Source: a virus (lineage: Duplodnaviria; Caudoviricetes). Taken from it: DNA of 64,000 nucleotides. Location: IMG/VR virus record IMGVR_UViG_3300025392_000002; one strand, given 5' to 3'. The translations under genes and the position numbers were made by a program. Below, one piece after another: positions 1-48,705 of this stretch. Within the stretch, counting starts at the first letter, position 1; every line of letters starts with the position of its first letter. Under the pieces are notes generated by a model that did no database searches, was not told where the DNA came from, and saw only the letters and a program-made list of their open reading frames with translations.

Positions 1-23
1 ACAAGCACGTAAGGATAAAAACA

Positions 24-896
24 ATGACAATACTATATAATGTTTGGTTGGACCGTGTTAAATTTACCTACAGATTGGAGGAACATCGTGTGGCCCGTGT
101 GTGGGCTGACATTATGAAGCCTTTAAGTGTGACCAGCTTGTACAAAGGTGCTGATCCGTGGCACGGCAGACCCGAAGATCTAAAAAAACGCAGTACCGAG
201 CTTAACTTTTTGATAGATGCAATCAACACATGGATTCCTGAAAAAATTCCTGGTCATTTTGATGCAAGTGATGCACAGGCCAGTTTGAATCTTCTACATA
301 TAAATTTTCCACAGCAACACTATAAAGAAACTGATCCTGAAAAACTTTCTCAGTTGAGATACTACAATCACTTGCTACATCAACTTGAACAGTGCTTGTC
401 CAGTATCAACAATCCTGTGGAAGATATTTCAATCATAGCAAGTCCTGATATTCCATCACGGTTAGTGCCGTTAGAAGAGGAGGATTATAAATTGTTTAAA
501 AAGACATTTTTGTTTGGCGACTTGCTGTTGCACTATCCGCATGTGGGCCGACATCCTTATGAATTAGCCAGTCGCAAAGACGTGGATTGTCCTGCTGATC
601 AAATTATATGTCAAGACACTATTACAGAAAGTCACAGTATGCGATTTGGTCCCAGTCATATGAGTGATGAAGAATTTAACGAATTTTATCGTACCAGCGG
701 TATCACTTGGCCCTACAGCATTGATGATCCAAGACTGGCTGTGGGCTATATCAAATTAGGCACTCTATTGGCAGTGAACTATGAACGGCCACTCAAACAA
801 CAGGTTAGACAAATAGTCAAGGCATCAACAAAAATTACAAATTGGCAAATATTTGACCAAAACCAAGAGGCAGAGGACCAGACAAACACTAACTAG
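24..896 (+). CDS. hypothetical phage protein
   Basis: 290-aa ORF with AAGGA SD upstream; no family recognised. Confidence 0.7.
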   Translation: MTILYNVWLDRVKFTYRLEEHRVARVWADIMKPLSVTSLYKGADPWHGRPEDLKKRSTELNFLIDAINTWIPEKIPGHFDASDAQASLNLLHINFPQQHYKETDPEKLSQLRYYNHLLHQLEQCLSSINNPVEDISIIASPDIPSRLVPLEEEDYKLFKKTFLFGDLLLHYPHVGRHPYELASRKDVDCPADQIICQDTITESHSMRFGPSHMSDEEFNEFYRTSGITWPYSIDDPRLAVGYIKLGTLLAVNYERPLKQQVRQIVKASTKITNWQIFDQNQEAEDQTNTN

Positions 897-899
897 TGT

Positions 900-1325
900 A
901 TGTCTTGGTACTATGAAAATCAATTAATAGAAGAATTGCCCGAGGATTGTGTTGGATTTGTTTATCTAATTACAAATACAATTACAGGGCGTATGTACAT
1001 AGGCAAAAAACTAGCTAAATTTTCTAAAACTACCTACAAAGTAGTCAAGTTAAAAAACGGCACAAAGAAAAAAAAGAAAATCCGTGGTAAAATTGACTCA
1101 GACTGGCGTACCTATTATGGTAGCTCACCAGAACTGACCAAGGATATCACGCAGTTAGGTCAAGAAAACTTTCGCAGGGAAATACTTTTTTACTGTAAAT
1201 CCAAGGCAGAAACGTCATATATAGAGGCTCGTGAACAATTCAGCCGTCGTGTGCTGGAATCAAATGACTATTATAATGGTCATATTCAAGTGCGTGTACA
1301 CGGTTCACATATACTCAAATCATAA
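900..1325 (+). CDS. GIY-YIG endonuclease (T4 endonuclease II/DenA-like)
   Basis: GFVYLITN...MYIGKK motif, YYGSS, conserved E and C-terminal YYN. Confidence 0.85.
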   Translation: MSWYYENQLIEELPEDCVGFVYLITNTITGRMYIGKKLAKFSKTTYKVVKLKNGTKKKKKIRGKIDSDWRTYYGSSPELTKDITQLGQENFRREILFYCKSKAETSYIEAREQFSRRVLESNDYYNGHIQVRVHGSHILKS

Positions 1326-1329
1326 TAAT

Positions 1330-1795
1330 TTAGGCAGATAAAACACCAAATAAGCCTGCACTGGCGTTGTTAAAGTGCCCTTAAAGCTGGACCACGGGTC
1401 GCAGTCAATGGAATTCCTGCTTGGTGTCAGGGTTGTCAACTACTATCCTTAACAGGACGATGATGGAATATGCCTATAGAATCCGTTTAATTGACAAGGA
1501 AACTAATTTTTCAAGGCTAAAAGAGGGGTTGTAGCCCCACGTTTGTACTAATGTTAGCGTATTAGTGCAAGCCGCCGTCATATAAAGACAGCATGAGCAG
1601 GTACCGGATGACCGCCTGTGTTCTAGTGCTAACGCTAAGTGATATTGTTCGACTCAGATAATGTCCAAAATACTTTGCCCGCCAGGGCAAAGTGTGACTG
1701 AACGATCTAGATAATATATCTTAACGCTTCGCGTTTTATAATAACTACTAAAGTTCGAGCGAAAGCGATGAACAGAAGAACGCTAGTTCTTCTTT
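1330..1795 (+). ncRNA. candidate large structured non-coding RNA (or structured cis element)
   Basis: No ORF in the track over ~500 nt; >10 stems incl. 1541-1552/1561-1572 with G-U pairs, TACTTTGCCC-GCCA-GGGCAAAGTG, AGAAGAAC-GCTA-GTTCTTCT; two 7-nt long-range complementarities. Confidence 0.55.
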
Positions 1796-1835
1796 AAGTA
1801 CTAGATAAATATCATATCATGAGTAAACCACAAAT

Positions 1836-3293
1836 ATGAAAGTCGTAGAAATTATTAGTCTAAATGAATCTGATCCTAAAAAAGCTGTAGGTCTAGGTGA
1901 TAAAATAGCTAACTGGGCTCTTAGAAAAATTACGGGTGCAGGTACAGGTGCCGCCGCGGCAGAATTTATAAAAGCTAAAGATAAAGCTGTTTCGGCTCTT
2001 GTAAAAGCCATGGAAGAAAAAGCGGCCGCAGTAAAGCCTACAAATAAAATTATTGGAAAAGATGCCCATGAATTAACTGATACCGAAATAAACAATATTG
2101 TAGGCGAGGCTCTTGGAGATCTAGTTAGACTACCTGGTGATGTTTTTGTAAAAAAAGGTAGCCCTGATCATCTAGTACCTGTAGAATTTACTGTAAACGT
2201 GCCGAACAAGACACCGAGAAAAGTTCGTCGCCCTGGTGATCCTCCTCCGCCTCCTTCCACAACAACTAAAACTGAAGTACGTATGGTTCCTTGGACTGAA
2301 GCGCCAGCTGATGTGCAAGCAAAAATACGTCAAGAAATGGAATCTAGTAATTGGGTTACACAGAATCCTGCCGAGTATGAAAAAGTAAAAAAACAAGCAC
2401 TTGCTCAAGCAGAGGAACAGTACGATAAAGCAAATTTAGCTACTACTACTGGAGAAGCTGAAAGAAGATTTGACAAGATCAAAGACAAAGCATTAATGAC
2501 AAAAAGTTTTGGAGATTTTGTTGCCAAGTGGGGATTTGATGGATATGTATTATGGAATTGTTTTTGGCCTCCGTATTCACGTTTTCAAGATAAACTTGAA
2601 CAACTAAGAAATGATTTAAGTCAAAATAAGGCTAATGGACAAACTGTTTCAAAAGACATAGCAGAAAAATATTATCTAAATGCCTATGAAGCAGAAAAGA
2701 AAGTAATGATTGCAGAAGTAATACAGCTACTAGTAGTACAATTTGCAACAAAAATTCCTGCATCTGAAAAAGGCACATTTGGAGTTAGTCCTCTCAATGG
2801 AGCCACATGGACAACAATTACTCATTTATTTTTACCGTTCCTACGATTGGCTGAAGCCGATACTAAACAAAAAACAAATATAATTATAAAAGCAATTAAT
2901 AATCCTGTTACACGAGTAGCAATGATCAGTCTAGTGAATTGGTTACAAGTTTCGGAAGGCCTTGGGGCGGCAATGGTTAATTATGTTTTGTTTACTATTC
3001 CTTTACCTCCGGGAGTTCCTAATATAGAAGTTAAACCTGGAAATTGGGTCACTTCTAAGATTAGTAGTATGATACCAGATCTAGACAGCAAGGCTAAAGA
3101 GCTTCTAGCAAAAGAAGAAGCAGATAAAAAGAAGAAAGATGCAGAAACACCTGCACCGCAATCTGAACAGCCTCCGGTACAACAGCCAGTACAACAGCCA
3201 GAGCAACCAGTACAACAACCTAATAGTACTCCATCTACAACTACCCAACCGGGTAGTCGAATCGACAGACTAGACAGCAAGTACGGAAGTTAA
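1836..3293 (+). CDS. hypothetical late protein, possibly virion-internal
   Basis: 485-aa ORF, late box TAAATA at 1806-1811, N-terminal MKVVEII, Pro/Gln-rich C-tail. Confidence 0.65.
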   Translation: MKVVEIISLNESDPKKAVGLGDKIANWALRKITGAGTGAAAAEFIKAKDKAVSALVKAMEEKAAAVKPTNKIIGKDAHELTDTEINNIVGEALGDLVRLPGDVFVKKGSPDHLVPVEFTVNVPNKTPRKVRRPGDPPPPPSTTTKTEVRMVPWTEAPADVQAKIRQEMESSNWVTQNPAEYEKVKKQALAQAEEQYDKANLATTTGEAERRFDKIKDKALMTKSFGDFVAKWGFDGYVLWNCFWPPYSRFQDKLEQLRNDLSQNKANGQTVSKDIAEKYYLNAYEAEKKVMIAEVIQLLVVQFATKIPASEKGTFGVSPLNGATWTTITHLFLPFLRLAEADTKQKTNIIIKAINNPVTRVAMISLVNWLQVSEGLGAAMVNYVLFTIPLPPGVPNIEVKPGNWVTSKISSMIPDLDSKAKELLAKEEADKKKKDAETPAPQSEQPPVQQPVQQPEQPVQQPNSTPSTTTQPGSRIDRLDSKYGS

Positions 3294-3523
3294 AGTAGTG
3301 GTAGTTGGGTGTTTTTAGTAGTTTCAATATTTTCTTTAATAATCTGAAAGAAAATTTCTCGATCCTCATAGCTATAACGATCTAGTAAATCGTTAATCGA
3401 TACACCTCCACGCATGTACCAGCCAATTTTGTAAAGTTCTAATTTAAATTCTTTGCTTTCTTCTTCTAGCCTAATTAGATCCTGTTGGATATCCTCGGAG
3501 CTTTTTCCAATTAGGCTTAGACG
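3290..3523 (-). CDS. gp51-like tail/baseplate assembly segment, probably expressed as a -1 frameshift extension of the upstream gene (absent from ORF track)
   Basis: Open 77-codon -1 frame RLSLIGKSSEDIQQDLIRLEEESKEFKLELYKIGWYMRGGVSINDLL...ENIETTKNTQLPLL; only ATG is internal (3415). Confidence 0.7.
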   Translation of the reverse strand, partial: RLSLIGKSSEDIQQDLIRLEEESKEFKLELYKIGWYMRGGVSINDLLDRYSYEDREIFFQIIKENIETTKNTQLPLL

Positions 3524-4335
3524 AAAAAATTAGACTGATCCAAATCTATCGATAATTCTGCTTTATGCTGGCAAGCCCCGCAAGTTACCGGATATAATGG
3601 AGCTCTCCACTTTAATAAATTTTCTTCAATCTTTTTATTGATTTTTTCAAATATAATTCTATCGCAATTATCTAACCATTCGTTAATATATTGTTTTTCG
3701 GTAACTACTTGTCCGCTTACTTCAACACTGTCGACACAACTATGATAAACTTCAAGTTGTATTTCGCTAAGTTCTTTCCATAACAAATTCATCTGTTGGT
3801 TTTTTTCGTCGCCGTCGTCCATTTTTTCAATTTGAAAAAGTTTTTGTTGAATTTGAAAATTCTTCAGTGCAAAATCTGTTTTCTTTTTGTAATTTAAAGG
3901 CTGTATTTTAACAGACAATTCGTCTAATACTATATTAGTATCAAATTCTAAATTTGTAAAATGATTAATTAGTATACCTAAATCAACATCATATTTGTTA
4001 GGTTCATCGCACTCTGTACATGTATGTTCTATTTCTATAGTGTTGCCGTAAGTTGCTATTCTTATTGCGGCAAAAATTATTTCAGAATCTAACGATGATA
4101 AATCCCATGCATTTTTAATATTAGGACAGCAACTTTCGATAATTTTAACACTACTTTCACCACTTAATAGTGCATCAGGAGTTTTTGCCATAAGTTCATC
4201 CATACCAGTCATGCCATATACTGCAATTTTACTAGGATCTCCTTGTATAGTTCCGGTCTGACAATAAGCACCTTTACTGGGCAAACTAATATAAATTTTG
4301 GGTTGTCTGAAAAACTGTTGTAGAGGATTTGCCAT
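3517..4335 (-). CDS. baseplate hub/tail assembly chaperone (T4 gp26-like)
   Basis: MANPL..FRQPKIYI.LPS N-terminus, two CxxC pairs, ends NFFV; next to tape measure gene. Confidence 0.75.
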   Translation of the reverse strand: MANPLQQFFRQPKIYISLPSKGAYCQTGTIQGDPSKIAVYGMTGMDELMAKTPDALLSGESSVKIIESCCPNIKNAWDLSSLDSEIIFAAIRIATYGNTIEIEHTCTECDEPNKYDVDLGILINHFTNLEFDTNIVLDELSVKIQPLNYKKKTDFALKNFQIQQKLFQIEKMDDGDEKNQQMNLLWKELSEIQLEVYHSCVDSVEVSGQVVTEKQYINEWLDNCDRIIFEKINKKIEENLLKWRAPLYPVTCGACQHKAELSIDLDQSNFFV

Positions 4336-4348
4336 ATTTTACTCCTGA

Positions 4349-4373
4349 TAAATATATGTAGTGTGTATTTATA
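4349..4373. promoter_or_regulatory. face-to-face pair of T4-type late promoters
   Basis: TAAATA + strand 4349-4354 (tape measure) and TATAAATA - strand 4366-4373 (gp26-like). Confidence 0.65.
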
Positions 4374-4398
4374 TACGCATATTTCTTAGGATTTTTAA

Positions 4399-6369
4399 AT
4401 GGCTAGTGAAAATGTAACCGTTACGATAGATTCTGTAGTAATCGGTAAACAAATTGCCGAAGCATTAACAAGCTGGCTTGGAAAACAATCGGGTACTTTA
4501 AAAGCGGGTGGCACAGATGTTGCAGGTCTTACCGCGGCAGCAATTCCCGCGGCTACAGCCATAGGCGGTATGAAAGATCAAAGTAATGCGGCAACTGCAT
4601 CTTTGACAAGATTTGCAGGTGTAATTCCTTACGCAGGCACAGCATTTGCTGGCCTTATTCAAGATATAGATACTGCAAGAGCGCAAACTAATAAAAATTT
4701 CCAACAAGGTATCGGCGGTTTAAGTTTATTTGACACAGCAGAAAAAGCTGCCAAGGCTGGATTTAACAGCCAGGAACAATATAGAGAAGCACTGACAAGA
4801 TCAGGCGGAGCACTAGGTGGCATAAACAATGCAATAGGTCAAACTAGTAACGATATTTTAAGATTTGGAGAAAAGGTAAGAAATAACGATCTAGATCAGA
4901 ACCAAAAGAGCTTGCTAAAAAGCAATGCCATGCTGGGAGATGAGTTGGGTAGAGTTGCAGTTTTAAGCCAATACGGACGTAGAGACAAATTATCAGAAGG
5001 CGACGCAACTAATCGTGCAGTGGAAGCTACTGACAAATTAAGTAGAGAAATTTTAAGACAAGCTGGAGTAACTGGTAAAAGTACCACAGCTATAGAAGCA
5101 GAATTAGAAGAACGTCTACAGCAACCAGCGGTATTAGCCAATATGCGCCAAATGACAGAGAAACAACGTGAAAGTTTCATGTCAAATCAAGTAGCGTTAA
5201 GTGGTATGGGTAAGAATGTTTCTGATTTAAGTGCCACACTCGGTATAAATGGTCGTCTAAGTGAAACACAACGTTATCAGTTACTAGCCATGGGTCCAGC
5301 CGCAAGTGAATTTCAACGTGCAAGTCGTATGGCTGCCTTGGCAAAAACTGATGAACAAAAACAAATGGCTGCAGATGCCATGGCAAGAGCACAGGCCAAA
5401 GCCAATGATTATCAAAATAGTCCTCAGTTTGCCAATGCATTGAAAAATCTAGCTGAAGGTGATCCACGTAGACAGGCCATGGAAGCACAAATGAGGCAAA
5501 ATTTAACTGCGGCTCCACAAGCAGCCGCACAGAGAGACACTGGATTGTCAGGAGTAAGTGCTAATAAACTTGCCAGAGATGAAATTGATAGAACAATAGC
5601 TGGTAAAAAACTAGTGGGCGGCAAAGAAGTAGAAGATACTGGGCAAACTATGGCACGTATGTCCGCAGAAGGCAATTTAAGAGCGCAGGCAAATACACAA
5701 GGTATGATTGGAGCACTAAATGACCTTGGTAAACAAATGGATAAGAACGGTGCATTTGCTAAAAAATATGGAGAAATGTTAGATTTCTTATACGGTAAAG
5801 AAACAACTGCCGCGGCTGCACAAGAAAGAAATGCAAAATTTATACAAGATGTTGCTAAAGCAGTTAATACTGTTGCTAACACTGCCAGTGGTAATAACAG
5901 TAATACTCCTAATGGTCAACGAGAAACTCCAGGAGTTCCTCCATATGTGCCGGGACAAACTCGTCCTCGTGTCGAAGGAGGTTCTCACGCAAGTGGAACT
6001 AAAGAATCTTTTGGTGATTGGTTTGGCAAAGACTTTGGCGGCGGTATGCTAGCAGAATTACACGGTCCTGAAGCAGTAGTTCCACAAGCTAAAATTGGCG
6101 AGTTTATGAAAGACATGATGTCTGGTATTAGTAAATCAAAAGCACAAGGCGCACAAACTGATTTACCCAATATGACAAACATGGGCAATACCGGTACTAG
6201 CGGTAGTGGAAATAGCGATAATGTAACTCTAAAAGACGTGTTAGCCAGTCTACAACAGTTAAATAAGACTATGGGACAAGTAGCTTCGCATTCAGAGTCA
6301 ACTGCTGAAGCAAGTCATAAAACAGCTAGATTAGCTGGCAAGGCTACTGGTAATAGAGTAGCGGTTTAA
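4399..6369 (+). CDS. tail tape measure / baseplate hub protein
   Basis: Ala/Gln-rich helical 656 aa with C-terminal ELHGPEAVVP motif; directly upstream of portal. Confidence 0.7.
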   Translation: MASENVTVTIDSVVIGKQIAEALTSWLGKQSGTLKAGGTDVAGLTAAAIPAATAIGGMKDQSNAATASLTRFAGVIPYAGTAFAGLIQDIDTARAQTNKNFQQGIGGLSLFDTAEKAAKAGFNSQEQYREALTRSGGALGGINNAIGQTSNDILRFGEKVRNNDLDQNQKSLLKSNAMLGDELGRVAVLSQYGRRDKLSEGDATNRAVEATDKLSREILRQAGVTGKSTTAIEAELEERLQQPAVLANMRQMTEKQRESFMSNQVALSGMGKNVSDLSATLGINGRLSETQRYQLLAMGPAASEFQRASRMAALAKTDEQKQMAADAMARAQAKANDYQNSPQFANALKNLAEGDPRRQAMEAQMRQNLTAAPQAAAQRDTGLSGVSANKLARDEIDRTIAGKKLVGGKEVEDTGQTMARMSAEGNLRAQANTQGMIGALNDLGKQMDKNGAFAKKYGEMLDFLYGKETTAAAAQERNAKFIQDVAKAVNTVANTASGNNSNTPNGQRETPGVPPYVPGQTRPRVEGGSHASGTKESFGDWFGKDFGGGMLAELHGPEAVVPQAKIGEFMKDMMSGISKSKAQGAQTDLPNMTNMGNTGTSGSGNSDNVTLKDVLASLQQLNKTMGQVASHSESTAEASHKTARLAGKATGNRVAV

Positions 6370-6380
6370 GGATAAAACGA

Positions 6381-8123
6381 ATGAGTTGGAAAAAATATTT
6401 CACACCTGTGCCGGTTAATGGCGAAGTCTTAAGCCCAATCAGCGGAATGAATTCCGGAAATCGCCCAGGCCCAGCTCGTACAAACTACAGTAGTTACTTG
6501 CCAGATGTTTATACTGGTAGTCCAAATCGTGTAGAACGTTATCAGCAGTATGAAGTTATGGACAGCGATCCAGAAGTTAATGCGGCATTAGATATTCTAG
6601 CAGAGTTCTGCACACAAAAACTAAAAGACAATAACAATCCGTTTGCAGTCAAATGGCGCCACAAGGCAACTAATAGCGAAATCCGTATTCTCAGTGAGTA
6701 CTTACAGCAGTGGAACAAGTTACAAAACTTTGATATTCGTATTTTCCGTATTGTTCGCAATACATTCAAGTATGGCGATAGCTTTTTCATCCGTGATCCA
6801 GAAAATCAAAAGTGGAGTTATGTAGATCCTAGTAATTTAGTCAAGGTTATTGTAAACGAAAGCGAAGGCAAAAAGCCTGAACAGTACATTCTTAAAGATC
6901 TAGCACCTAATTTTGAAAATTTAGTTGCTACAATGATTACTCCTAACATTAATCCTAAGCAAACTGGTGGTGGTCCACTACCTGCCAGCGGATATTTAGG
7001 TAGCAGTGGCAGTCGCGGTAGTACAAGTAGCGGCGGCGGAAGTGGTAGCGGTAGTCGCTTTGGTATGCAACACAAAGAAAATGCTATCGATGCCAAGCAT
7101 ATTGTACACTTATCCTTGTCAGAAGGATTGGATAATAACTATCCGTTTGGCAATAGCTTGCTAGAAAATGTTTATAAAGTGTATAAACAGAAAGAATTAT
7201 TAGAAGATGCTATCTTAATCTATCGTATACAACGTGCTCCAGAGCGCAGAGTATTCCATATTGACGTAGGAAACATGCCAAGTCACTTGGCTATGGCATT
7301 CGTAGAGCGTGTTAAGAATGAAATCCATCAAAGACGTATACCAAGTCAAACTGGTGGTGGACAAAACGTTATTGATAGTGCATACAATCCACTATCAATT
7401 AACGAAGATTACTTCTTTCCTAAAACAGCAGACGGTAAAGGTTCAGATGTTACCATGCTTGAAGGCGGTAAGAACATTGGTGAAATTGACGACTTAAAGT
7501 ATTTTACTAATAAATTATTCCGTGGTTTACGTATTCCTAGTAGCTATTTGCCTACAGGACAAGATGATAGCCAGTCAAACTTCAACGACGGCCGTGTCGG
7601 AACTGCTTATATTCAAGAATTACGCTTTAACAAGTACTGCGAACGCTTACAAAGTCTAATGACTGCGGTGTTTGATGCTGAGTTTAAGATGTTTATGCAC
7701 AGCAAAGGCATGAATATTGACAGCAACTTGTTTGAATTATCCTTTAATCCACCATTAAACTTCGCCAGTAGCAAGCAAGCGGCTATCGATGCCGAGCGTA
7801 TCAACACATTTAATACCATTCAAGCAATACCTTTTGTGTCAAAACGCTTTGCTCTCAAGCGTTTCTTAGGTCTAACAGCAGAAGAGATTGCAGAAAATGA
7901 ACGCATGTGGGCAGACGAAAATGGTAAAGGTGAGCCAACTGCTACTGATGCCGCTGGAGAATTACGTAGTGCAGGCTTATCTGCTAGCGGAATTGAAGGC
8001 GACCTAGGCGCAGCCGCTGATATGACTGCACCAGAAGACATGCAAGAGCCAGGATCAGAAGGCATGAGTCCTACTGGCGCTCCTACACAACCTGGGGCAC
8101 CTCCTCCGCCCCCTGCCGCATAA
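6381..8123 (+). CDS. gp20: portal vertex protein (T4 gp20-like)
   Basis: LEDAILIYRIQRAPERRVFHIDVGNMP, EDYFFP, YFTNKLFRGLRIPSS motifs. Confidence 0.95.
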   Translation: MSWKKYFTPVPVNGEVLSPISGMNSGNRPGPARTNYSSYLPDVYTGSPNRVERYQQYEVMDSDPEVNAALDILAEFCTQKLKDNNNPFAVKWRHKATNSEIRILSEYLQQWNKLQNFDIRIFRIVRNTFKYGDSFFIRDPENQKWSYVDPSNLVKVIVNESEGKKPEQYILKDLAPNFENLVATMITPNINPKQTGGGPLPASGYLGSSGSRGSTSSGGGSGSGSRFGMQHKENAIDAKHIVHLSLSEGLDNNYPFGNSLLENVYKVYKQKELLEDAILIYRIQRAPERRVFHIDVGNMPSHLAMAFVERVKNEIHQRRIPSQTGGGQNVIDSAYNPLSINEDYFFPKTADGKGSDVTMLEGGKNIGEIDDLKYFTNKLFRGLRIPSSYLPTGQDDSQSNFNDGRVGTAYIQELRFNKYCERLQSLMTAVFDAEFKMFMHSKGMNIDSNLFELSFNPPLNFASSKQAAIDAERINTFNTIQAIPFVSKRFALKRFLGLTAEEIAENERMWADENGKGEPTATDAAGELRSAGLSASGIEGDLGAAADMTAPEDMQEPGSEGMSPTGAPTQPGAPPPPPAA

Positions 8124-13066: not shown

Positions 13067-13118
13067 TGTCACGCTTGCATGGTGCAAGTTTATGCGGATA
13101 ACCCAACCGCGTATGACA
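13067..13118 (+). promoter_or_regulatory. structured 5' leader (three-way junction)
   Basis: TGTCA/TGACA closes GCTTGCA/TGCAAGT and TATGCGG/CCGCGTA stems, just after late box 13058-13063. Confidence 0.5.
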
Positions 13119-13146
13119 TAGAACGTCAAATTTAAGGAGAAACAAA

Positions 13147-14898
13147 ATGGGACGTCCATTAAATAAAAAATATTTCGGTAAGAGAAATACAGGTGCCGCA
13201 GGCACATTTGGTAATACAAACTTATTACCAACAGACTATGACCTAGGTGGTCTTAAAACAAGCGGTGTTACCGTTGGTACAGCAGGTTCTTATACACCTA
13301 CACAAGCTAACACATTAACTGTAACATTTCCAAAACCAGCACTAGCTTCCGAAGGCGGTGTAACAGCAGTTGGTACTCCTTCATTCACTTATGTAAGTGG
13401 TGGTTCATTAAGTGGTACACAAACTCAAGCCTATTTAGGTGGCGCTGGTAACCCAGTAACAGCTACAGTTGGTACTAACGTAGTTACATTTACTCCAACA
13501 CTAACAGCAAGCACAACTGGTATTTCAGTTACTAGTGTTAGCTCATCTGGTGTTGCAGTAGTAGCAAGTGGTACATACGTAAAAGGCCAAGACTTTGTAT
13601 TATCAGGTGCTTCAGCTGGTAACGGAACATATTATGTTCAAACTGGTGGTACATCAGTAACAAGCATTACAATCACAACAAGTTATGCATTGGCTATTGG
13701 ATCAACAACTCCAGTAGTAACAGCATCAACTGGTGGTACAGCAGTACTAGGCGCAACTTATAATACAATCGCTAGTATTGCTCTAGCAAGTGGTGGTACA
13801 TTTACAGCCGCACAAACTACAGCATGGAACGCCGCAAGTGCTCCATCATTAGTACAAGCAACAAGTTCAGGCCTAGGCGCAACATTGACAGTTTCAAGTT
13901 CAGCATTTGGTGTTGGCGCAGTTGCATTAACTACTCCTGGTAACGGTTATATCAATGCTGTTTCAGTTACTCCAAGTATCACAAGTTCAACATTGACAAC
14001 AATTACAACATATACATCAACTGGTTTAAGTGCAACTACAGTTGGTGGTGTATTTGCAATGACACCAGCACAATCAGCTGGTACATTCTATGTTGGGCAA
14101 GTTGTTACATTAACCGGTACAGCAGGCGGCGCGGGTTCAATTGGTAGTTATTCAACTGGTAACAGTTACCTTGTTAAAGCAACTGATGGTATCAGTACAC
14201 TTACTTTAACTAACATTGATGGTTCAGCAATAACAACAGTAGTTGGTGCAATCAGCGGTTTATCAATCGTTCTTTACAAAGAAACAGTTACATCAACAGA
14301 CCAATTAGTTCCAGGGTTGAAAGTAGTTACAACTGGTACAGGCGGTAGTTTAACAGCCGGTACATATTATATCATTGCAGTTAACGGCTCAACTGAAATT
14401 GTTCTAAGTAGCTCAGCAGGTGGTAATGCAGTAGCAGTTACAACAGCAACTTCAACAGCAACTTGCGTATTCAGTGGTAACATTGCCGCAACGTTTAGTT
14501 CAGGTGCCGCTACTGCTAACTTGACATTTGCCGCACAAGTAACAACTGGTTATACTGGTAACTATGCCGCTATCCAGGCACAGTCATTAGCTACAACTGG
14601 TGGTGTTGTTCGTCAAGATACAGACATTATCAAACAAGAAAACACACAACGTTTCCGTGTTGAAAGTGCTGATGGTGTATTCTATGCTAAGTTAGTTAAT
14701 GCTTTTCCAACAGTCGGTGGAACAATAGCTATCAATGCTACTGATTCTGCTGGTGGTACATACTGGGTAACTAAGATCACTAATCGTCGTTGCCGTGTAA
14801 CTCGTAACACAGGTACACAGTTTACAGACGGATCACAAGTTAACTGGACATTTGGCTCAGCAGTAGCTAACGTTTCAGTTAAGATCGATAACGCTTAA
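13147..14898 (+). CDS. virion structural protein (head decoration/fibre-like)
   Basis: Thr/Gly/Ser-rich beta modules, strong SD, own promoter and terminator, codon usage like the capsid gene. Confidence 0.65.
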   Translation: MGRPLNKKYFGKRNTGAAGTFGNTNLLPTDYDLGGLKTSGVTVGTAGSYTPTQANTLTVTFPKPALASEGGVTAVGTPSFTYVSGGSLSGTQTQAYLGGAGNPVTATVGTNVVTFTPTLTASTTGISVTSVSSSGVAVVASGTYVKGQDFVLSGASAGNGTYYVQTGGTSVTSITITTSYALAIGSTTPVVTASTGGTAVLGATYNTIASIALASGGTFTAAQTTAWNAASAPSLVQATSSGLGATLTVSSSAFGVGAVALTTPGNGYINAVSVTPSITSSTLTTITTYTSTGLSATTVGGVFAMTPAQSAGTFYVGQVVTLTGTAGGAGSIGSYSTGNSYLVKATDGISTLTLTNIDGSAITTVVGAISGLSIVLYKETVTSTDQLVPGLKVVTTGTGGSLTAGTYYIIAVNGSTEIVLSSSAGGNAVAVTTATSTATCVFSGNIAATFSSGAATANLTFAAQVTTGYTGNYAAIQAQSLATTGGVVRQDTDIIKQENTQRFRVESADGVFYAKLVNAFPTVGGTIAINATDSAGGTYWVTKITNRRCRVTRNTGTQFTDGSQVNWTFGSAVANVSVKIDNA

Positions 14899-20799: not shown

Positions 20800-23700
20800 A
20801 TGGCATCAGAATTTAAAATTGGAAGATTAAGATTTACATGGAAAGGTGTGTGGACACCAAATACTGTTTACGCTCGAGATGACGTAGTTAGCTACCAAGG
20901 TAAAACATACGCATGTGTTCTTCCAAATACCTCAAGTTCAACAAATTTTTATAATGACTTGTATTATGTAACTCAAACAGGTGCAAGCACACCTTATTGG
21001 AGTTTAATTGTTGACGGAAAAACATTTGTTAGTTCGAATAATGGACAGTGGCAAACTGGCCAGGCATATAGCTTAGGTAATATTATTATCTTTGGCGGTG
21101 TGGTGTATTATTGTAGTACAGCTCATACTAGTACAGCATTTGCATCTGATATCGCAAACTGGACTGAGTATACAGAATTCAATGCTTGGAGATCGGTAGG
21201 TTGGGTTCCAAATTATGCGTATGGTAAAAACGATGTTGTAAAATACGGTGGTATAGTTTATAAGTGTATCGCTAATCATACTAGTGCCGCTACAGCCGCA
21301 TTAGGTTTAGAAGCCAATCAAAGTGCGTGGACCATTGTCGATAGCGGAATAGAATACAAAGGAACTTGGACTACAAGTACTAGATATAAAACAAATGATA
21401 TTGTAAAGTATGGCCCAGATATTTGGATTTCAAATAGCGGCCACACAAGTTCTATATCTGTAGGACTTAGCACAGTCTCAATTACTAATACAACAGGTCA
21501 GTTTTCTTATTCAGGTCCTGCATTAACAGTAGGACAATCTATTACAGTTACAGGGCAATTATCGGCAACTGCATCCGGATCAATTTCTTTATATAGCGGA
21601 AGCACAGCAATATATTATGTTAGCGCAACTAACGGATCGAATACATTTGTTTTGTCAGATACATACGCACATGCTCTTGCTGGAACAAATCAATTAACAA
21701 CCGTTGCTGGAACAACAACTGGTTTAATTTTTAGTATAAGCGGTTTTGATCAAGGTAAATGGTCAATTTGGATGCCAGGTTTAGAATATCTTGGAGCATG
21801 GAATGCCGCTACAACTTATCAAACTGGCGATACTACAATGTATGGTGGTTATACATACATAAGTAAAACTGCAAACAACATTGGTAACACTCCATCTGTA
21901 GATTCAACAGACTGGGCAGTTGAAACACAAGGATTTAATTTTAGGGGTGAATGGGGCCAGACAACTCCTTACAAAGTTGGTGATGTTATACGTCGCCACG
22001 GTATGTTGTTTGATGCTATTGCTGATAACCTTGGACAAGACCCAAACTCATACAGCGTAACAAAAACTTATTCTTCAACAGGTAGCTCTGGTACTATATT
22101 AAAACTTAATTCTGTAACAGGTATAACGGTTGGTATGAATATTATTGGTGCTGGTTTTACAGCCGGCCAAACTGTAATTGCTATCGATACAACTGCAATC
22201 ACTGTTACAATAAGTAGTGTCAATGATACTCCTTTAGTTGATGCACAGCTTCTTTATTTTGTAGGTATTAATTATATCTATTGGAAGGCAGTTATTCCTG
22301 GAAGATTATGGACTAAGTCATGGGTTACTGCAACAACATATACAATTGGTGACCTAGTAGTTTGGCAAAATGGTACTTATGTTTGTGTACAAACACACTT
22401 GTCAGGATATTCAACTAGTCGACCAGATCTCGACACTACAAATACATACTGGATTTTTTACATCCCACATGCTAGAAAAAATGCTATGAATACTGTAGGG
22501 GATCTTGAATACTATTCAAGCACTACTAGTTCATACACTGCATTACCTATTGGAACAAATCAGTATACATTAAAAGCAGTTTCTACAACAGGTGCTAACG
22601 GAGTTATAACAACATCTCCTAGTTGGAATAAAATTAATCAAGTAGGTGCTGTTTATTATGTTTCAACAAAAACTGGTATAGATCGTCCAGACTATGGTAC
22701 AACTTGGGATCAACCTTGGAAATCTATTGCCTATGCTTGTAACTATATTGGTCAAGGTACATTATATCAAGGAGCAGTTGCTAATCTTGTAGCAAACAAA
22801 ACTTGGATGACTACTGAAATGTACTACTGGATGGTTTATCAAAAATCAATCAGTGCAAATGGGTTCACTTCAAGCTCTGTATTTGATCAGACAAAGACTA
22901 TAAGGGATGCTGGTTATATTATTGATGCACTTGTATATGATATGGCACGAGGCGGAAATAGTCAAATTGTTGCGGCAACTCTAGCTTATTTTGCATTTGG
23001 TAGCACTAACACAATTATCAATAGTACAGTATTAGCCGAGTTACCTTATTTTATTGCCGCATTAAATCAACTAGCATCGCTTATACAAAATGTATTAACC
23101 AATACTGTTCCTGCGCTAACTGTCGGATCCAACAATTATACAGGATCGATTTATCAAACATTAAATTCAATTGTTCCAGTTGTGTATCAAAGTTTTGGAA
23201 CTACAGATTCTACTTCGCCTGCCTATGCGGCATCGTTGTTGACTATTGTTACAACAGCATTGACTAATCAAAATACTTCGTCAGTACCGACACCAAATAC
23301 TGGTACTACTGCAAGTATTTTTATTAAAACTGGAAGTTATTATGAAACACTGCCAATTACAGTTCCAGAAAACACATCTATAATTGGTGACGAGCTACGT
23401 AGTGTAACAGTAGCACCTGCAATAAGTTTAACTTTACAATGTACTGCCGCAACCGGATCAAGTAATTTATTCACAGTAAATTCTACAAATCAGTTTACAG
23501 ATCAAATGGCTTTACAATTTGCCAACCCATCTACTCCAGCAGTTATTGGAACTAATCCTTACTATGGGTTTGGTGGTATTACTCCCGGAACAACTTATTA
23601 TGTAATAGGATCTAGTATTTCATCGACTCAGTTTAAAGTTACAGCATCTACTGGTACATATTATGGAGTTAGCGGAACAAATATTGCATCTTCTGGAATA

Positions 23701-26700
23701 AATGCAACATTTAACGTATCTCCAAATCAAAATGGAACTTATACTGTAGCTGTTGTTTATCCAGGTAGTGGATATGCTCAAGGAGATACTATAAGAATAT
23801 CTGGAAGTAGTGTAGGTATTCCTACAACTACCGCAGGATTATTTGTTACAGGTTTCCAATATGCTATTACATCATTGGGCACAACAGATTTTACAGCAAT
23901 TGGTGCAAGTGCAAATACAATTGGTGGAAGATTTGTAGCAACAGGTCCTGGATCTGGTACTGGTACTGCTACAAATACCTACAATGATATTACTGTAACT
24001 GTGCTTACAGTATCTTCTGGAGGTATTGCTACTATTAATACAACTAGCACTTCAGTATTTCCATTGGTTACTGGTTCTGGAACTGTTGCTACAGGAACCC
24101 ATATGGTAATATATGCCGGTGACTGTGTTAAAGATATGTTCCGTTTGAGAAACGGTACAGGTCTACGTAACATGACTTTCACTGGATTGTTAGGTTCGTT
24201 AACTACCGCCGATCAATTTTATATACAGCGTCCAACAGCAGGCAGTTATGCTTGCCTAGATCCAGGTACAGGACCAAACGACACTACTGCTTGGATCTTC
24301 CGACGTAGTCCTTATGTACAAAACGTTACAGCATTTGGTAATGGTTGTACTGGATTGAAGATTGATGGAACCTTGCATAACGGTGGAAATAAATCGATCG
24401 TTTGTAATGACTTTACACACATTATTAGTGATGGTATTGGTATTTGGTGTACTGGCCCAAGTGCATTAACAGAAGCTGTTTCAGTATTCTCATACTATGG
24501 ATATACTGGTTACTTTGCAGAAGCTGGTGGAAGAATTCGTGCTACCAACGGTAACACTTCATATGGTACATACGGAGTTATTGCTGAAGGGTATGACTCT
24601 ACCGAAACCCCAGCAACTGGTATTGTTTTTAATCAAAGTGCTCAAGTACAGGCATCGGTACAACAAGCATTTGGTTCTCAAGCACAGTTAGTAAGATTAA
24701 ATTTCTCTAATGCAGGATCTGCATATAATACAACAACTACTAACTTATTAAATTATAGTAATAACTTTTTAGGTGCTAATTGGTTTACAGATACTAACGT
24801 AACATTTAATAAAAATACCATTGCGTTAACTGGACTAACTGAAGCATGGAGTATGACTGGCGGAACCACTGGCCCAGATGGTAGCTATGTTTATCAAAAT
24901 ATCAGTGTGCCAGCACCAGGATTTACATATTCTGGTTTAAGCGGCGTAAACATTTCTGGTAGCGGTGGTACCGGAGCTAATAGTCCAGCAACATTTAATA
25001 TTACTGTTACTGCAACATCATATGTTGTTACCGTTGCTAGCGGTGGCGGCGGTTATGTTTCTGGAAATCAAATATCTATTTCTGGAAGTCAATTAGGCGG
25101 TGTTAATAGTGTTAACGATTGCGTTATCACTGTAGCTAGTACCGCAGGTAGTGCAGTATATACAATCACTAGTTCAGGAACTGTTCCAACTAATAGTGCT
25201 TTAGGTTATACACTGAGTGTATATGTTAAACAAGGCACGTCTGCGATTGTTGACTTGTACGCATTATTTTCCGGATCTTCTAGTCCAGCATTGACTAGTG
25301 GTATCAGTTATAACTTTAATACAGGTGTAGTAACACCTACAAGTTCCAACGGCGGTTTAACTCCTAGTAGATACGGAGCAATTAATCAACAATTATCGTC
25401 CACCGATAATACAGCTGGCTGGGTAAGATTATGGTTCTCAGTATATGATACTTCTGGGTTGAATACAACTTTACAATATAGATTGTATCCAAGAGGTTAT
25501 AGCGGATTCACTGGACAATACACATATATCTATGGATCACAAGTAGAATTATCAAAATCTAATTACACACCAAGTTTCTATTTAGAAGTTGCTAACGTTT
25601 CTAAATTTACTGCTTATGCTAACTTTAACGTTAGCGGTGCGGGTACGGGCGTTGTTACTATTGGCGATGAACTTAGAACTCAAGCAGTATTTCAAGCTCG
25701 TGTTGTAACTGATAGTAATGGTGTTACAGGCGGCTCAGGATACTTAACTGCAAGTAATAATGCACAGGGTGGAACAAATCAATATTTACAACTAGCACAG
25801 TCTGATACAAATACTAACGGAAACTATACAGGTATGCGTGCCTTTGTACAATCTGGTACAGGTGCAGGACAATATGGTTATATTTCATACTATAACGCTT
25901 CAACTAAGACAGCTTGGATTTTAAAAGAATCATTTGCAACTTTACCAGTGACTGCTACAACTGCGTCTAGTAGTTTGTTTTCATTGACTGGCGCTACAAC
26001 TGCAACTTTATATTTGAATCAACCAGTACAGTTTATTCCAACATACTATACAACATCAGTAAGTTCTACTTCTCTTGGAACAACCACAGTTACAACTTCA
26101 ATCGGCGGCACAACAAACACGTTCTCTGTTTCCAGTACTGTTGGTCTGTATTATAATCAAGCAGTTACATTTACTGGATCAACTTTTAGTACTGTAACTT
26201 CGGGCAACACTTACTATATATTTGCAATTATTGATGCAACAACTATTCAAATAACTAATCAACCTTATGGTACTGTTTGGCAGTTGACAAATTCAGTTGG
26301 TACAATGACCATGAATTTTAACTCCAATACTAGCTATTTGTCAGGATCTACAACTAACATGGTTGTTAACTATCCAATACAGTTTACTGGATCAGCACTA
26401 GGTGGATTATCTGTTGGTACAGTATATTATATTAATGATATTATTAGTACTAGTAACTTTACAGTTTCAGCATTATTAATTACATCAACTGTGACTGCAA
26501 CTACAGCTGGAACAGTTAACGGTGCAACAAATTCATACTGGGGCTCTAACTTACCTGTTCTCACTGTAGCTTCTACCGCAGGACTAATAAGTTTAAATCC
26601 AATTGTGTTTACAAGTCCAATGATTGGCGGCCTTGTTGACTCTCAAAAATATTATATTGCTAAAATTGTAGACTCATATACTTTTGCAGTAGCAACAACT

Positions 26701-47864: not shown

Positions 47865-48122
47865 ATGGAATATATCGACCACCTAAATCAATCTATTGAG
47901 AATGTTCAATCAGAATTGACTCGAGTTAAAGAAGAACTAGCAGTCCTAGAAAAAGATTTTGGCGATGTTAAACTTAATCCGTACGGAGTAACTAACATTG
48001 ATTTCAGCAAAAGACAAGAACTTATGAGCGATGCCTTAAAAATGGAAGGCGCAATAATGGGCCTAAATTTAGCTAAGGAAGCGTTTACCGGAGTAGCACC
48101 GGATGCAGTGGCCACACCTTAA
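47865..48122 (+). CDS. small coiled-coil hypothetical protein
   Basis: 85 aa, strong AGGAGA SD. Confidence 0.7.
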   Translation: MEYIDHLNQSIENVQSELTRVKEELAVLEKDFGDVKLNPYGVTNIDFSKRQELMSDALKMEGAIMGLNLAKEAFTGVAPDAVATP

Positions 48123-48705
48123 TGTAGTGCGTGATGGGCAGATGGCTGACCCATTTCCAAATTTAATTTGGAAATATCATTACGAGTTTGATTGGGATAA
48201 ACTAAAAGATAAAGTTTATAATCACATACAAAGCACTTCATGCTCGACATCGTTAGAGTTAGGCGATTCTCAATCTTCTATAGGTGCCGCTTATGAAGAC
48301 AGAGTTATCAATTGGCCAGAAATGCAGGATTTTCTCAAGTGGTTAGAACCTGTTTTTGAATTTCAGTGGCGTCATCACGGATATGTATACCAAGAAAAAC
48401 GTATTGGAGAAGTATGGTTTAATCGTCACGGCTTTGGAGGCCAAACACTTGAACACCATCACAACGGTATAGGACTAGTTCTTACTGCATACTTACAATT
48501 ACCTCCCGGGAGTGGATTCATCGAATTCCGAGATCCTTTAGAATATCACAAAGCCAACAGTCCTATTATTCCTGAAAATTTGTTATGGAAGTCTGTAGAA
48601 TGTGAGACAAATGATATTCTTATTTTTCCTGGATGGTTAAAACATCGAACACAGCCTAGTAACTCTAATGAAGACCGTGTTGTTATGACTATGAATATAA
48701 GATGA
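48103..48705 (+). CDS. 2OG-Fe(II) oxygenase (TIGR02466-like)
   Basis: WFN...EHHH, F.DP, IFPGWLKH.T, RVVMTMN; true start may be slightly downstream. Confidence 0.85.
   Translation: MQWPHLNVVRDGQMADPFPNLIWKYHYEFDWDKLKDKVYNHIQSTSCSTSLELGDSQSSIGAAYEDRVINWPEMQDFLKWLEPVFEFQWRHHGYVYQEKRIGEVWFNRHGFGGQTLEHHHNGIGLVLTAYLQLPPGSGFIEFRDPLEYHKANSPIIPENLLWKSVECETNDILIFPGWLKHRTQPSNSNEDRVVMTMNIR

What the first reader, a model, noticed from the sequence alone, without database searches (positions are those of the whole stretch)
1330..1795. ~470-nt multi-domain structured element with putative kissing loops after a GIY-YIG nuclease
Seen: by far the longest non-coding gap in a tightly packed window, and densely paired. 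Stems include TAGGC/GCCTG (1331-1358), GCACT/AGTGC, CCTG/CAGG (1416-1431), TCCT-TAAC-AGGA, GGGGT-TGTA-GCCCC, GTTTGTACTAAT/ATTAGTGCAAGC (two G-U pairs, favouring + strand RNA), GCAGG/CCTGT around CGG-ATGA-CCG, ATTGTTC/GAACGAT enclosing TACTTTGCCC-GCCA-GGGCAAAGTG, GC-GAAA-GC and AGAAGAAC/GTTCTTCT. Loop ACACCAA (1343-1349) matches loop TTGGTGT (1421-1427), and loop TTAGCGT (1554-1560) matches ACGCTAA (1632-1638). Known: large phage-associated RNAs (GOLLD, ROOL) and nuclease-linked RNAs (HEARO, omegaRNA) have this kind of size and tertiary contacts. Inference: a large ncRNA I cannot assign to a family, co-transcribed with and possibly partnered to the Lys-rich GIY-YIG protein. A replication origin or packaging element is an alternative.
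Basis: partly seen in the sequence, partly recalled or inferred. Interest (0 to 1): 0.8.

Follow-up and report, generated by a model that had tools for sequence, protein, structure and literature searches.

The report
Full-length Polynucleobacter-1 twin-box phage RNA
The gene-free gap behind a small nuclease gene of this uncultured T4-like phage encodes a real, multiply knotted RNA of about 465 bases whose first third is a catalogued but unexplained RNA motif, and whose uncatalogued part carries the same 7-letter word twice for a reader that is still unknown.

Summary
Window 1330-1796 (+) is a conserved, densely paired non-coding element found in more than 120 viral contigs. Both proposed loop-loop contacts are backed by compensatory changes.

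The element can be assigned to a family. Positions 1353-1497 match Rfam RF01718 (Polynucleobacter-1) at 84.9 bits. Weinberg's 2010 supplementary alignment already shows a "tail", the 1554/1632 pseudoknot, and the position behind this nuclease gene family.

Still uncatalogued are the 3' 160 nt and a striking feature. Two direct 7-mers (1656-1662 and 1709-1715, AGATAAT) are identical to each other in 86 of 86 loci, across 11 variants. Divergent subfamilies carry quite different words, still duplicated. I found no complementary partner.

The nuclease-partner idea is not supported:
- The GIY-YIG family occurs in 494 cultured phage records. Five of those phages were checked and none has the RNA.
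- The RNA occurs without the nuclease in Polynucleobacter chromosomes, next to a DUF6641 gene and a short tyrosine recombinase.
- Nuclease residues do not track the word.

The function is unknown. My best guess is low-confidence: an RNA that re-pairs with its own template DNA, of the replication or copy-control type.

This scan has found the same RNA many times on other DNA, and earlier follow-ups reached the same reading.

The parts
900..1325 (+). SegE-like GIY-YIG gene (141 aa). It is the usual upstream neighbour of the RNA, not a demonstrated partner.
   Evidence: PF19835, E 1.8e-33. A homologue lies directly 5' of the RNA in 102 of 120 viral loci. The family is in 494 cultured phage records; five checked lack the RNA.
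1330..1796 (+). Full-length structured RNA: the 5' domain, the tail and the 3' extension.
   Evidence: Conservation profile. Covariation counts. Fold z-score -4.3.
1353..1497 (+). 5' domain, equal to the Rfam Polynucleobacter-1 motif (RF01718).
   Evidence: 84.9 bits against a gathering score of 37, covering model positions 1-141. 89% of cells paired, covariation 0.428 against 0.05-0.10 for slid controls.
1343..1349 (+). 5' strand of loop-loop contact PK1. It lies outside the Rfam model.
   Evidence: Pairs with 1421-1427. For 1344-1348 with 1422-1426: 86% paired, 5 of 5 pairs with changes on both sides, e.g. GC 26 / AU 17 / CG 9.
1421..1427 (+). 3' strand of PK1, in the loop of hairpin 1416-1431.
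1525..1538 (+). Hairpin GGGG/CCCC.
   Evidence: 4 of 4 pairs with changes on both sides.
1542..1571 (+). Long hairpin whose loop carries the PK2 5' strand. Its many G-U pairs point to a + strand RNA.
   Evidence: 10 of 10 pairs with changes on both sides, 90.5% paired, with frequent GU/UG cells.
1554..1560 (+). PK2 5' strand (TTAGCGT).
   Evidence: Pairs with 1632-1638, 97.5% paired. Variants include ATAGCAG/CTGCTGT and TTAGTGT/ACACTAA. The pseudoknot is drawn in Weinberg's SS_cons_1 line.
1632..1638 (+). PK2 3' strand (ACGCTAA).
1577..1581 (+). PK3 5' strand (GTCAT).
   Evidence: Pairs with 1608-1612, 96.7% paired; UA 33 / CG 28 and GC 37 / AU 23.
1608..1612 (+). PK3 3' strand (ATGAC), inside the loop of helix 1597-1601/1615-1619.
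1590..1630 (+). Helix 1590-1593/1627-1630, which encloses helix 1597-1601/1615-1619.
   Evidence: 95% paired; GC 29 / CG 17 / UA 12 at the best-scoring pair.
1652..1662 (+). Twin box 1: ACTC followed by the word AGATAAT (1656-1662).
   Evidence: The word is identical to box 2 in 86 of 86 loci, across 11 variants. Identity covariation is 1.00 at 1656/1709, 1657/1710, 1660/1713 and 1662/1715.
1672..1693 (+). Hairpin between the boxes (ACTTTGCCC-GCCA-GGGCAAAGT), followed by the conserved GTGTGACTGA.
   Evidence: A hairpin of at least 8 bp lies between the boxes in 86 of 86 loci, with 74 distinct sequences.
1705..1715 (+). Twin box 2: ATCT followed by the word AGATAAT (1709-1715).
1723..1735 (+). 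Hairpin AACGC-TTC-GCGTT.
   Evidence: 84% paired, 5 of 5 pairs with changes on both sides.
1753..1773 (+). Helix GTTC/GAAC with a GA/GA internal loop and a GC-GAAA-GC tip.
   Evidence: Partial covariation: UA 22 / CG 20 at one pair.
1774..1793 (+). Terminal 8-bp hairpin, the 3' boundary of the conserved element. It has no U tract.
   Evidence: 97% paired, 7 of 8 pairs with changes on both sides. No intrinsic-terminator match.
1802..1811 (+). T4 late-promoter-like TAGATAAATA, 25 nt before the next gene. It marks the end of the RNA unit.
   Evidence: Exact site. Many homologues carry ATAAATA just after the terminal hairpin (alignment). The T4 late-promoter consensus TATAAATA is quoted from general knowledge.

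Best explanation
**Shown.** This is the full-length form of the Polynucleobacter-1 RNA. It is a single-copy gene for a + strand non-coding RNA of about 465 nt, in three parts:
- a 5' domain, which is Rfam RF01718;
- a doubly pseudoknotted tail;
- an uncatalogued 3' extension that carries two identical single-stranded words ("twin boxes") on either side of a conserved hairpin.

**Well supported.** The RNA is an autonomous module and not the guide or cofactor of the neighbouring GIY-YIG nuclease. T4-like freshwater phages carry it once per genome. Small integrase-bearing islands in Polynucleobacter chromosomes carry it without the nuclease.

**Inferred, low confidence.** The two boxes must be read by one and the same nucleic-acid partner. 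The word changes often, the two copies always change together, and no third site changes with them. The most economical partner is therefore the complementary strand of the RNA's own gene. Box 1 in the nascent RNA would re-pair with the template DNA, or with an antisense transcript, at box 2, and the hairpin would loop out. That would make it an R-loop, primer or copy-control RNA for replication of whichever element carries it. ColE1 RNA II works in a comparable way: an upstream RNA segment must grip a like-sequenced downstream template stretch.

**How likely.** Identity of the RNA about 0.95; independence from the nuclease about 0.8; the proposed mechanism about 0.2.
For: **Identity.**
- RF01718 scores 84.9 bits here and 62-121 bits in 17 of 17 homologous loci tested.
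- The original alignment has the tail and the pseudoknot, and notes that the motif lies downstream of GOS11034/PSSM2_218-like genes.

**It is an RNA.**
- 34 tail pairs are 90% paired, with covariation 0.538 against 0.08-0.12 for slid controls, and 0 of 500 shuffles reach it.
- The 5' domain is 89% paired with covariation 0.428.
- There are three crossing helices and frequent G-U cells on the + strand.

**Twin boxes.**
- The two words are identical in 86 of 86 loci, under a search that let them vary independently, across 11 variants.
- Divergent subfamilies and the bacterial copies carry unrelated words, still duplicated: AGTCAAG, AGCAGAAG, AGCGAAAG, AGAGAAAG, ACTTAAAGAG.
- No co-varying complement lies within +-700 nt (G-U allowed) or +-3 kb (exact).

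**Autonomy.**
- GIY-YIG homologues are in 494 cultured phage records. The RNA is absent from all 5 phages checked.
- About 20 bacterial loci have the RNA with no GIY-YIG.
- Mutual information between box positions and protein columns is 0.30-0.53, against a control median of 0.44.

**Element-specific role.**
- There is one copy in each of 5 phage contigs, including a 99%-complete 345-kb genome.
- The islands carry a tyrosine recombinase.
- One Polynucleobacter genome holds two islands with two different words.
Against: - No transcript, R-loop or origin data exist.
- An RNA is already complementary to its own template, so a second copy of the word is not obviously needed for R-loop formation.
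- T4-type origins, as I know them, do not use large structured RNAs.
- The element is not at a gene-strand switch in this window.
- An unlinked partner elsewhere in the genome cannot be excluded with 7-nt words.
- In phages the RNA starts within about 10-30 nt of the nuclease stop codon, with no promoter-like site above chance. It may simply be the 3' part of that mRNA.
Confidence: 0.3

Rival explanations
1. A trans-acting regulatory or sponge RNA. The two exposed boxes each bind a copy of an unlinked partner encoded elsewhere in the phage, island or host. The partner could be an mRNA, a small RNA, single-stranded DNA, or a dimeric sequence-reading protein. The ornate fold only presents the boxes.
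For: - The boxes sit in stretches with no covarying intramolecular partner.
- The words are purine-rich and change quickly.
- The RNA is independent of its neighbours.
- YAGATAAT is about twice as frequent in the window as expected: 16 sites against 7.8 +- 2.9.
Against: - Every change of word would need three coordinated changes, yet 86 of 86 box pairs are identical and no intermediates were seen.
- No enrichment of a locus's own word or its complement was found in about 0.8 Mb of flanks compared with permuted words.
- No extra sites were found in three bacterial genomes beyond control counts.
Confidence: 0.3
2. The RNA is the guide or cofactor of the adjacent Lys-rich GIY-YIG nuclease, as the omega RNA or HEARO is for TnpB or IscB. 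A variant of this idea has it serve whichever enzyme is encoded beside it.
For: - The RNA lies directly 3' of the nuclease gene in 102 of 120 viral loci.
- It carries variable, programmable-looking words.
- In the bacterial islands a catalytic-domain-only tyrosine recombinase follows the RNA on the same strand in 10 of about 20 loci.
Against: - The nuclease family is in 494 cultured phage records, and the RNA is absent from the 5 phages checked.
- The RNA occurs without the nuclease in 9 viral loci and about 20 bacterial loci.
- No association between nuclease residues and the word beyond background.
- No recombinase or reverse transcriptase in 5 phage contigs.
- No target site carrying the word was found.
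Confidence: 0.05
3. A cis-regulatory or stabilising untranslated region: either the 3' UTR of the GIY-YIG mRNA or a leader for the downstream gene. The 2010 paper tentatively classed the motif as cis-regulatory.
For: - There is no room for a promoter between the stop codon and the RNA, and no terminator-like site.
- The 2010 table marks the motif as probably cis-regulatory, 'y'.
Against: - The downstream genes are unrelated among loci: none of the 120 has a homologue of the window's flanking proteins.
- A late-promoter-like site separates the RNA from the next gene.
- In the bacterial islands the upstream gene is divergent, so the RNA stands alone there.
- About 465 nt with three pseudoknots is far more than known UTR elements need.
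Confidence: 0.1
4. A self-processing or processed RNA. The twin boxes are two identical cleavage or ligation sites that release a unit of about 53 nt containing the hairpin, either by a ribozyme or as a type III antitoxin-like unit.
For: - Identical words bracket a conserved hairpin at a spacing of 47-59 nt.
- The large knotted fold is ribozyme-sized.
Against: - No match to any Rfam ribozyme.
- No cognate endoribonuclease gene was seen.
- A fixed enzyme would not tolerate wholly different words.
Confidence: 0.08
5. A purely DNA-level element, with no function for the transcript. Examples are an origin, a packaging signal, or a slipped-strand structure made of direct repeat, palindrome and direct repeat.
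For: - Direct repeats flanking a palindrome are a classic slipped-strand substrate.
- The element is single-copy per genome.
Against: - Helices tolerate G-U on the + strand only. For example, one pair of the long stem reads AU 24 / GU 19.
- Three long-range pseudoknots covary.
- The spacing of the repeats is not helically phased.
Confidence: 0.05

Closest known systems
Polynucleobacter-1 RNA motif (Rfam RF01718; Weinberg et al. 2010, Genome Biol 11:R31, PMC2864571)
   Same: - Positions 1353-1497 match the whole 141-position model at 84.9 bits.
- The unpublished-in-Rfam "tail" and its 7-bp pseudoknot in the authors' Stockholm file correspond to 1500-1640.
- The position downstream of GOS11034/PSSM2_218-like genes is the same.
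- One GOS scaffold in that file is a near twin of this locus.
   Different: - The Rfam model covers only the first third.
- The 5' loop contact (1343-1349), PK3, the 3' 160 nt and the twin boxes are not described there.
- The authors found it in no purified phage. Here it sits in a T4-like phage contig and in more than 120 IMG/VR contigs.
ColE1 RNA II (plasmid primer RNA)
   Same: It is a structured RNA of several hundred nt. As I recall from Masukata and Tomizawa, not tested here, its upstream segment must pair with template DNA at a like-sequenced downstream site to form a persistent hybrid. That is a relation of identity between two RNA segments, as in the twin boxes.
   Different: - No sequence or Rfam relationship.
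- No evidence here for a hybrid, for RNase H processing or for an origin.
- This is a resemblance in logic only.
HEARO / omega RNA of IscB and TnpB
   Same: A large structured RNA encoded right beside a small nuclease gene.
   Different: - A different nuclease fold (GIY-YIG, not RuvC/HNH).
- The adjacency is not obligatory.
- There is no terminal guide next to a transposon end.
- No Rfam match.
IS110 bridge RNA
   Same: One RNA carries two short programmable segments.
   Different: - In a bridge RNA the two loops hold different guides, complementary to target and donor, and the RNA works with a DEDD recombinase.
- Here the two words are identical direct copies, no complement was found, and the phages have no recombinase.
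GOLLD and ROOL large phage-associated RNAs
   Same: Ornate RNAs of several hundred nt, of unknown function, common in phages.
   Different: No match to their Rfam models, and a different architecture.
cow-rumen-2 RNA (RF02947)
   Same: Positions 1541-1638 share the UUAGC hairpin loop and the GCCGCC and GGAUGACC blocks with its consensus.
   Different: The score is only 16 bits (E 3.4, gathering score 66), and the match did not appear in 18 other loci. It remains an untested lead.

Membership tests
Polynucleobacter-1 RNA (RF01718) | Score at or above the curated gathering threshold over the full model. | tested here: met
   84.9 bits against 37, covering model positions 1-141. 17 homologous loci score 62-121 bits.
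Polynucleobacter-1 RNA (RF01718) | The consensus helices of the 5' domain are kept by compensatory changes. | tested here: met
   38 pairs, 89% of cells paired, 30 pairs with changes on both sides.
Polynucleobacter-1 RNA (RF01718) | The optional "tail" with its pseudoknot, as in the authors' original alignment. | tested here: met
   The SS_cons and SS_cons_1 lines correspond to 1525-1638. The pseudoknot is 97.5% paired.
Polynucleobacter-1 RNA (RF01718) | Located downstream of a GOS11034/PSSM2_218-like gene. | tested here: met
   The GOS twin scaffold encodes the same protein C-terminus. 102 of 120 loci have this arrangement.
Nuclease-guide RNAs (HEARO/omega RNA type) | The RNA and the nuclease always occur together. 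| tested here: not met
   The nuclease family is in 494 cultured phage records, and five checked have no RNA. The RNA occurs without the nuclease in bacterial loci.
Nuclease-guide RNAs (HEARO/omega RNA type) | A variable guide segment that matches a target. | tested here: inconclusive
   Variable words exist, but no target or complement was found. A 7-nt word is too short for a genome-wide test.
Nuclease-guide RNAs (HEARO/omega RNA type) | The RNA binds the nuclease and directs its cleavage. | not testable with these tools
   This needs biochemistry. No association between nuclease residues and the word was seen.
GOLLD / ROOL / other Rfam large RNAs | A match to the family covariance model. 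| tested here: not met
   The only hits at E up to 10 were RF01718, cow-rumen-2 (16 bits) and a chance snoRNA.
Primer or R-loop RNA of a replication origin (ColE1 RNA II-like) | A persistent RNA:DNA hybrid, with DNA synthesis starting at the RNA's 3' end. | not testable with these tools
   No read data were available.
Primer or R-loop RNA of a replication origin (ColE1 RNA II-like) | One copy per replicon, with a specificity that differs between co-resident replicons. | tested here: met
   One copy in each of 5 phage contigs. Two islands in one Polynucleobacter genome carry different words. This fits the family but is not specific to it.
IS110-type bridge RNA | Two loops with different guides complementary to donor and target, plus a DEDD recombinase gene. 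| tested here: not met
   The words are identical direct copies. The neighbours are a GIY-YIG gene, or DUF6641 and a tyrosine recombinase.

The most novel reading that the evidence does not exclude
The twin boxes are two copies of one programmable word, through which the RNA holds two identical nucleic-acid sites at once. It would serve as an RNA scaffold for whichever DNA enzyme is encoded beside it: the domain-poor GIY-YIG nuclease in phages, or the 188-aa catalytic-domain-only tyrosine recombinase in Polynucleobacter islands. That would be a new kind of RNA-directed DNA cutting or recombination.
Probability: 0.04. Interest if true: 0.95.

Novelty: new variant of a known kind. Interest (0 to 1): 0.55.

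Why it matters
For sixteen years Polynucleobacter-1 has been an orphan 141-nt motif with a single classified host.

- **What it really is.** It is the head of a triple-pseudoknotted RNA of about 465 nt. That RNA is a single-copy core feature of a large clade of uncultured freshwater T4-like, often giant, phages. Mobile islands in the genus Polynucleobacter share it.
- **Why the twin boxes stand out.** Two direct copies of a word that always change together show covariation by identity rather than by complementarity. Standard RNA covariation tools do not look for this. It implies a matching requirement, such as re-pairing, template switching or a shared reader, that no known bacterial or phage RNA class explains.
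- **A way to test it.** Isolated Polynucleobacter strains carry the RNA, so there is a culturable system for experiments.
- **Practical consequence.** The Rfam model should be extended, and the "NAD synthetase" label on the neighbouring gene family appears to be an annotation error.

Tried and rejected
1. **Close relatives among cultured phages.** blastn of window 1-6400 against 50,697 phage records found nothing.
2. **Homologous loci through the flanking proteins.** 24-896 and 1836-3293 gave one distant locus and none. A DNA pattern from the RNA core worked instead.
3. **A complementary partner for the boxes.**
   - An exact reverse complement within +-3 kb, and pairing with G-U allowed within +-700 nt, were no better than permuted words.
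   - ATTATCT sites in the window share no common context.
   - The 12-mer in three Polynucleobacter genomes and a 10-mer in one MAG occur at about control frequency.
4. **A third direct copy of the word.** None was found. The AGCGAAA near ACCGCC in the bacterial copies does not change when the boxes do.
5. **Reverse-transcriptase template jumping, as in DRT2.** No RT in 5 phage contigs.
6. **Tyrosine-recombinase overlap sites.** No recombinase in the phage contigs, and a 47-59 bp spacing is implausible for excision.
7. **Translational hopping or a mini-ORF between the boxes.** The spacing does not preserve the reading frame, and AUG and stop codons are not conserved.
8. **tRNA anticodon-loop pairing, a -10 promoter element, box C/D, a palindromic dimer site.** I inspected each against the variant list and none fits all variants.
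9. **DUF6641 as a common protein partner.** It is absent from the window and from the viral flanks.
10. **RNAalifold on MAFFT alignments of the 3' region.** It recovered only the terminal hairpin. I used mutual information and explicit pair counts instead.
12. **Homology of the tail to cow-rumen-2.** The match is not significant and was not reproduced.
Full report
**What is at the coordinates.** The stop codon of a 141-aa gene lies at 1323-1325 and the next start at 1836. The 510 nt between them hold no ORF above 42 aa. The upstream protein is a SegE-type GIY-YIG domain (PF19835, E 1.8e-33). The + strand folds to -147.4 kcal/mol (z -4.3, 0 of 100 shuffles as good), and the - strand gives z -2.5. 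The window is a T4-like phage: it has a baseplate hub gene, long runs of + strand structural genes and no tRNAs. No cultured phage is close at the DNA level.

**It belongs to a known family.** Rfam places Polynucleobacter-1 (RF01718) at 1353-1497 on the + strand. The score is 84.9 bits against a gathering score of 37, and the full model is covered. The only paper in the library that names this motif is Weinberg et al. 2010. Its supplement says three things:
- the 3' half is not always detected;
- most examples lie downstream of GOS11034 genes, which may be related to PSSM2_218 of cyanophage P-SSM2;
- none was found in a purified phage.

The authors' Stockholm file holds more than Rfam does. 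It includes a "tail" subfamily with further helices and a 7-bp pseudoknot line. It also includes a GOS scaffold that is a near twin of this locus, with the same protein C-terminus and the same downstream blocks.

**Homologues.** All 17 matching loci that I scanned with Rfam score 62-121 bits for RF01718.
- In 102 of 120 loci a homologue of the GIY-YIG protein (53-92% identity) ends just before the RNA on the same strand.
- In 7 more it lies about 900 nt upstream.
- Neither of the window's other two neighbours has a homologue in any locus.
- Among 85 sequences less than 90% identical to one another, conservation runs from about 1330 to about 1800 and then collapses.
- Many homologues carry an ATAAATA-type late-promoter-like motif right after the terminal hairpin. 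The window has TAGATAAATA at 1802-1811.

**Structure.** I aligned three sub-regions (A3, A1, A2), ranked column pairs by mutual information and counted pairs on explicit structures.
- *Tail, 1495-1650:* 34 pairs, 90% of cells paired, covariation 0.538 against 0.08-0.12 for partners slid by 1-3 columns, and 0 of 500 shuffles as high.
- *5' domain:* 38 pairs, 89% paired, covariation 0.428 against 0.05-0.10.
- *3' extension:* the terminal hairpin is 97% paired, with 7 of 8 pairs changed on both sides. AACGC/GCGTT is 84% paired.
- *Between the boxes:* every one of 86 loci has a hairpin of at least 8 bp.

The contact 1344-1348 with 1422-1426 has GC 26 / AU 17 / CG 9 at one pair. The contact 1554-1560 with 1632-1638 is 97.5% paired, with variants such as ATAGCAG/CTGCTGT.

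- The ATGA "loop" pairs with TCAT upstream, forming a third pseudoknot (1577-1581 with 1608-1612).
- ATTGTTC/GAACGAT is only 64% paired.

Frequent G-U cells in the helices place the RNA on the + strand.

**The unusual feature.** In the mutual-information ranking, four variable columns pair by identity rather than by complementarity, all at an offset of +53: 1656/1709, 1657/1710, 1660/1713 and 1662/1715. Each is 100% identical across 56 sequences.

A search that let the two 7-mers vary independently found both in 86 loci. They were identical in all 86, across 11 variants: AGATAAT 30, GGATAAT 19, GGATGAA 9, and others.

Divergent subfamilies carry unrelated words, still duplicated, behind the same ACTC and ATCT flanks. 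Examples are AGTCAAG, CATCGTCAAG, AGCAGAAG and ACAGAAA.

The word differs in about half of sequence pairs that are 60-80% identical overall. One contig (L002) is a natural deletion that lacks box 1 and the hairpin.

I found no partner:
- no complement in cis;
- no third copy;
- no consistent site in the window;
- nothing in whole bacterial genomes above control counts.

**Is it the nuclease's RNA?** The evidence argues against it.
- The GIY-YIG family is a widespread gene of T4-like phages. It is in 494 cultured records, often mislabelled "NAD synthetase".
- In Melnitz, ACP17, BUCT-ZZ01, phiN3 and P-HM1 the gene is followed directly by other genes. None of those genomes has RF01718.
- Mutual information between box positions and nuclease columns is 0.30-0.53, within the range of ordinary RNA columns (median 0.44, 90th percentile 0.56).

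**A second habitat.** The same core pattern occurs in bacterial assemblies, chiefly Polynucleobacter isolates (Latsch14-2, MWH-HuK1 twice, JS-Fieb-80-E5, P. rarus) and related MAGs.
- There the RNA has no GIY-YIG neighbour.
- It is preceded by a divergently oriented DUF6641 gene in about 19 of 20 loci.
- In 10 loci it is followed on the same strand by a 188-aa tyrosine recombinase consisting of the catalytic domain only.
- The twin boxes are kept, with words such as AGCGAAAG, AGAGAAAG, ATCAAAAG and, in a MAG, the 10-mer ACTTAAAGAG.
- The two islands of strain MWH-HuK1 carry different words.

The phage contigs, including a 99%-complete 345-kb genome, have exactly one RNA copy, no reverse transcriptase and no tyrosine recombinase. 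No DUF6641 was found in the window or in the viral flanks.

**Reading.**
- *Shown:* a single-copy, autonomous, + strand RNA of about 465 nt with three pseudoknots. It is the full-length form of a known orphan motif, shared by T4-like freshwater phages and by mobile islands of a likely host genus.
- *Inferred:* the twin boxes must be read by one partner. Because the word changes often and only the two boxes change together, the cheapest partner is the opposite strand of the RNA's own gene. That would mean re-pairing of RNA with template DNA, or with an antisense transcript. It points to an R-loop, primer or copy-control role for the replicon that carries the RNA, and it fits the different words in co-resident islands.

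I hold this mechanism at about 0.2. An unlinked partner is about as likely.

**Relation to earlier notes of this scan.** I consulted the notes after I had found the Rfam hit, the homologues and the twin boxes (notes). They show that the same RNA has been reported many times on other genomes, with the same reading. One note mentioned the Polynucleobacter islands and a possible replication role. I confirmed the islands independently and added their gene context.

Noticed in passing
window 13073-13149 (+): A second catalogued orphan RNA: freshwater-2 (RF02980), 64.6 bits against a gathering score of 49.9. It lies directly upstream of the 583-aa gene that starts at 13147.
   Followed up: no
window 20800-29610 and 29658-41012 (+): Two adjacent giant ORFs of 2936 and 3784 aa in the structural region.
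   Followed up: no
window 48103-54991 (+): A run of about twelve consecutive, overlapping or abutting ORFs of 174-258 aa on one strand. It looks like a tandem paralogue array.
   Followed up: no
window 900-1325 and 494 phage records: The small GIY-YIG family (T4-like gene cluster 213 in P-HM1) is widely annotated as "NAD synthetase" in cultured T4-like phages. Pfam calls it a SegE-type GIY-YIG domain, so the label is probably a propagated error.
   Followed up: partly
L157:2287-2853 (-), L146:1518-2084 (-) and relatives: A family of 188-aa tyrosine recombinases made of the catalytic domain only, 84-94% identical among Polynucleobacter strains. Each lies 250-400 nt downstream of the island copy of the RNA.
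   Followed up: partly
L132 and L157 (both in one 2.15-Mb contig of Polynucleobacter sp. MWH-HuK1): Two copies of the RNA in one genome, each with a DUF6641 neighbour. Their twin-box words differ: AGCGAAAG and AGAGAAAG.
   Followed up: partly
L002:8234-8778: A natural deletion variant of the RNA. It lacks the 3' strand of pseudoknot 2, box 1 and the inter-box hairpin, but keeps box 2 and an intact GIY-YIG gene.
   Followed up: no
window 1541-1638 (+): A weak look-alike of cow-rumen-2 RNA (RF02947, 16 bits, E 3.4). It shares the UUAGC loop and the GCCGCC and GGAUGACC blocks, so the tail might be a distant relative. The match was not reproduced in 18 other loci.
   Followed up: partly
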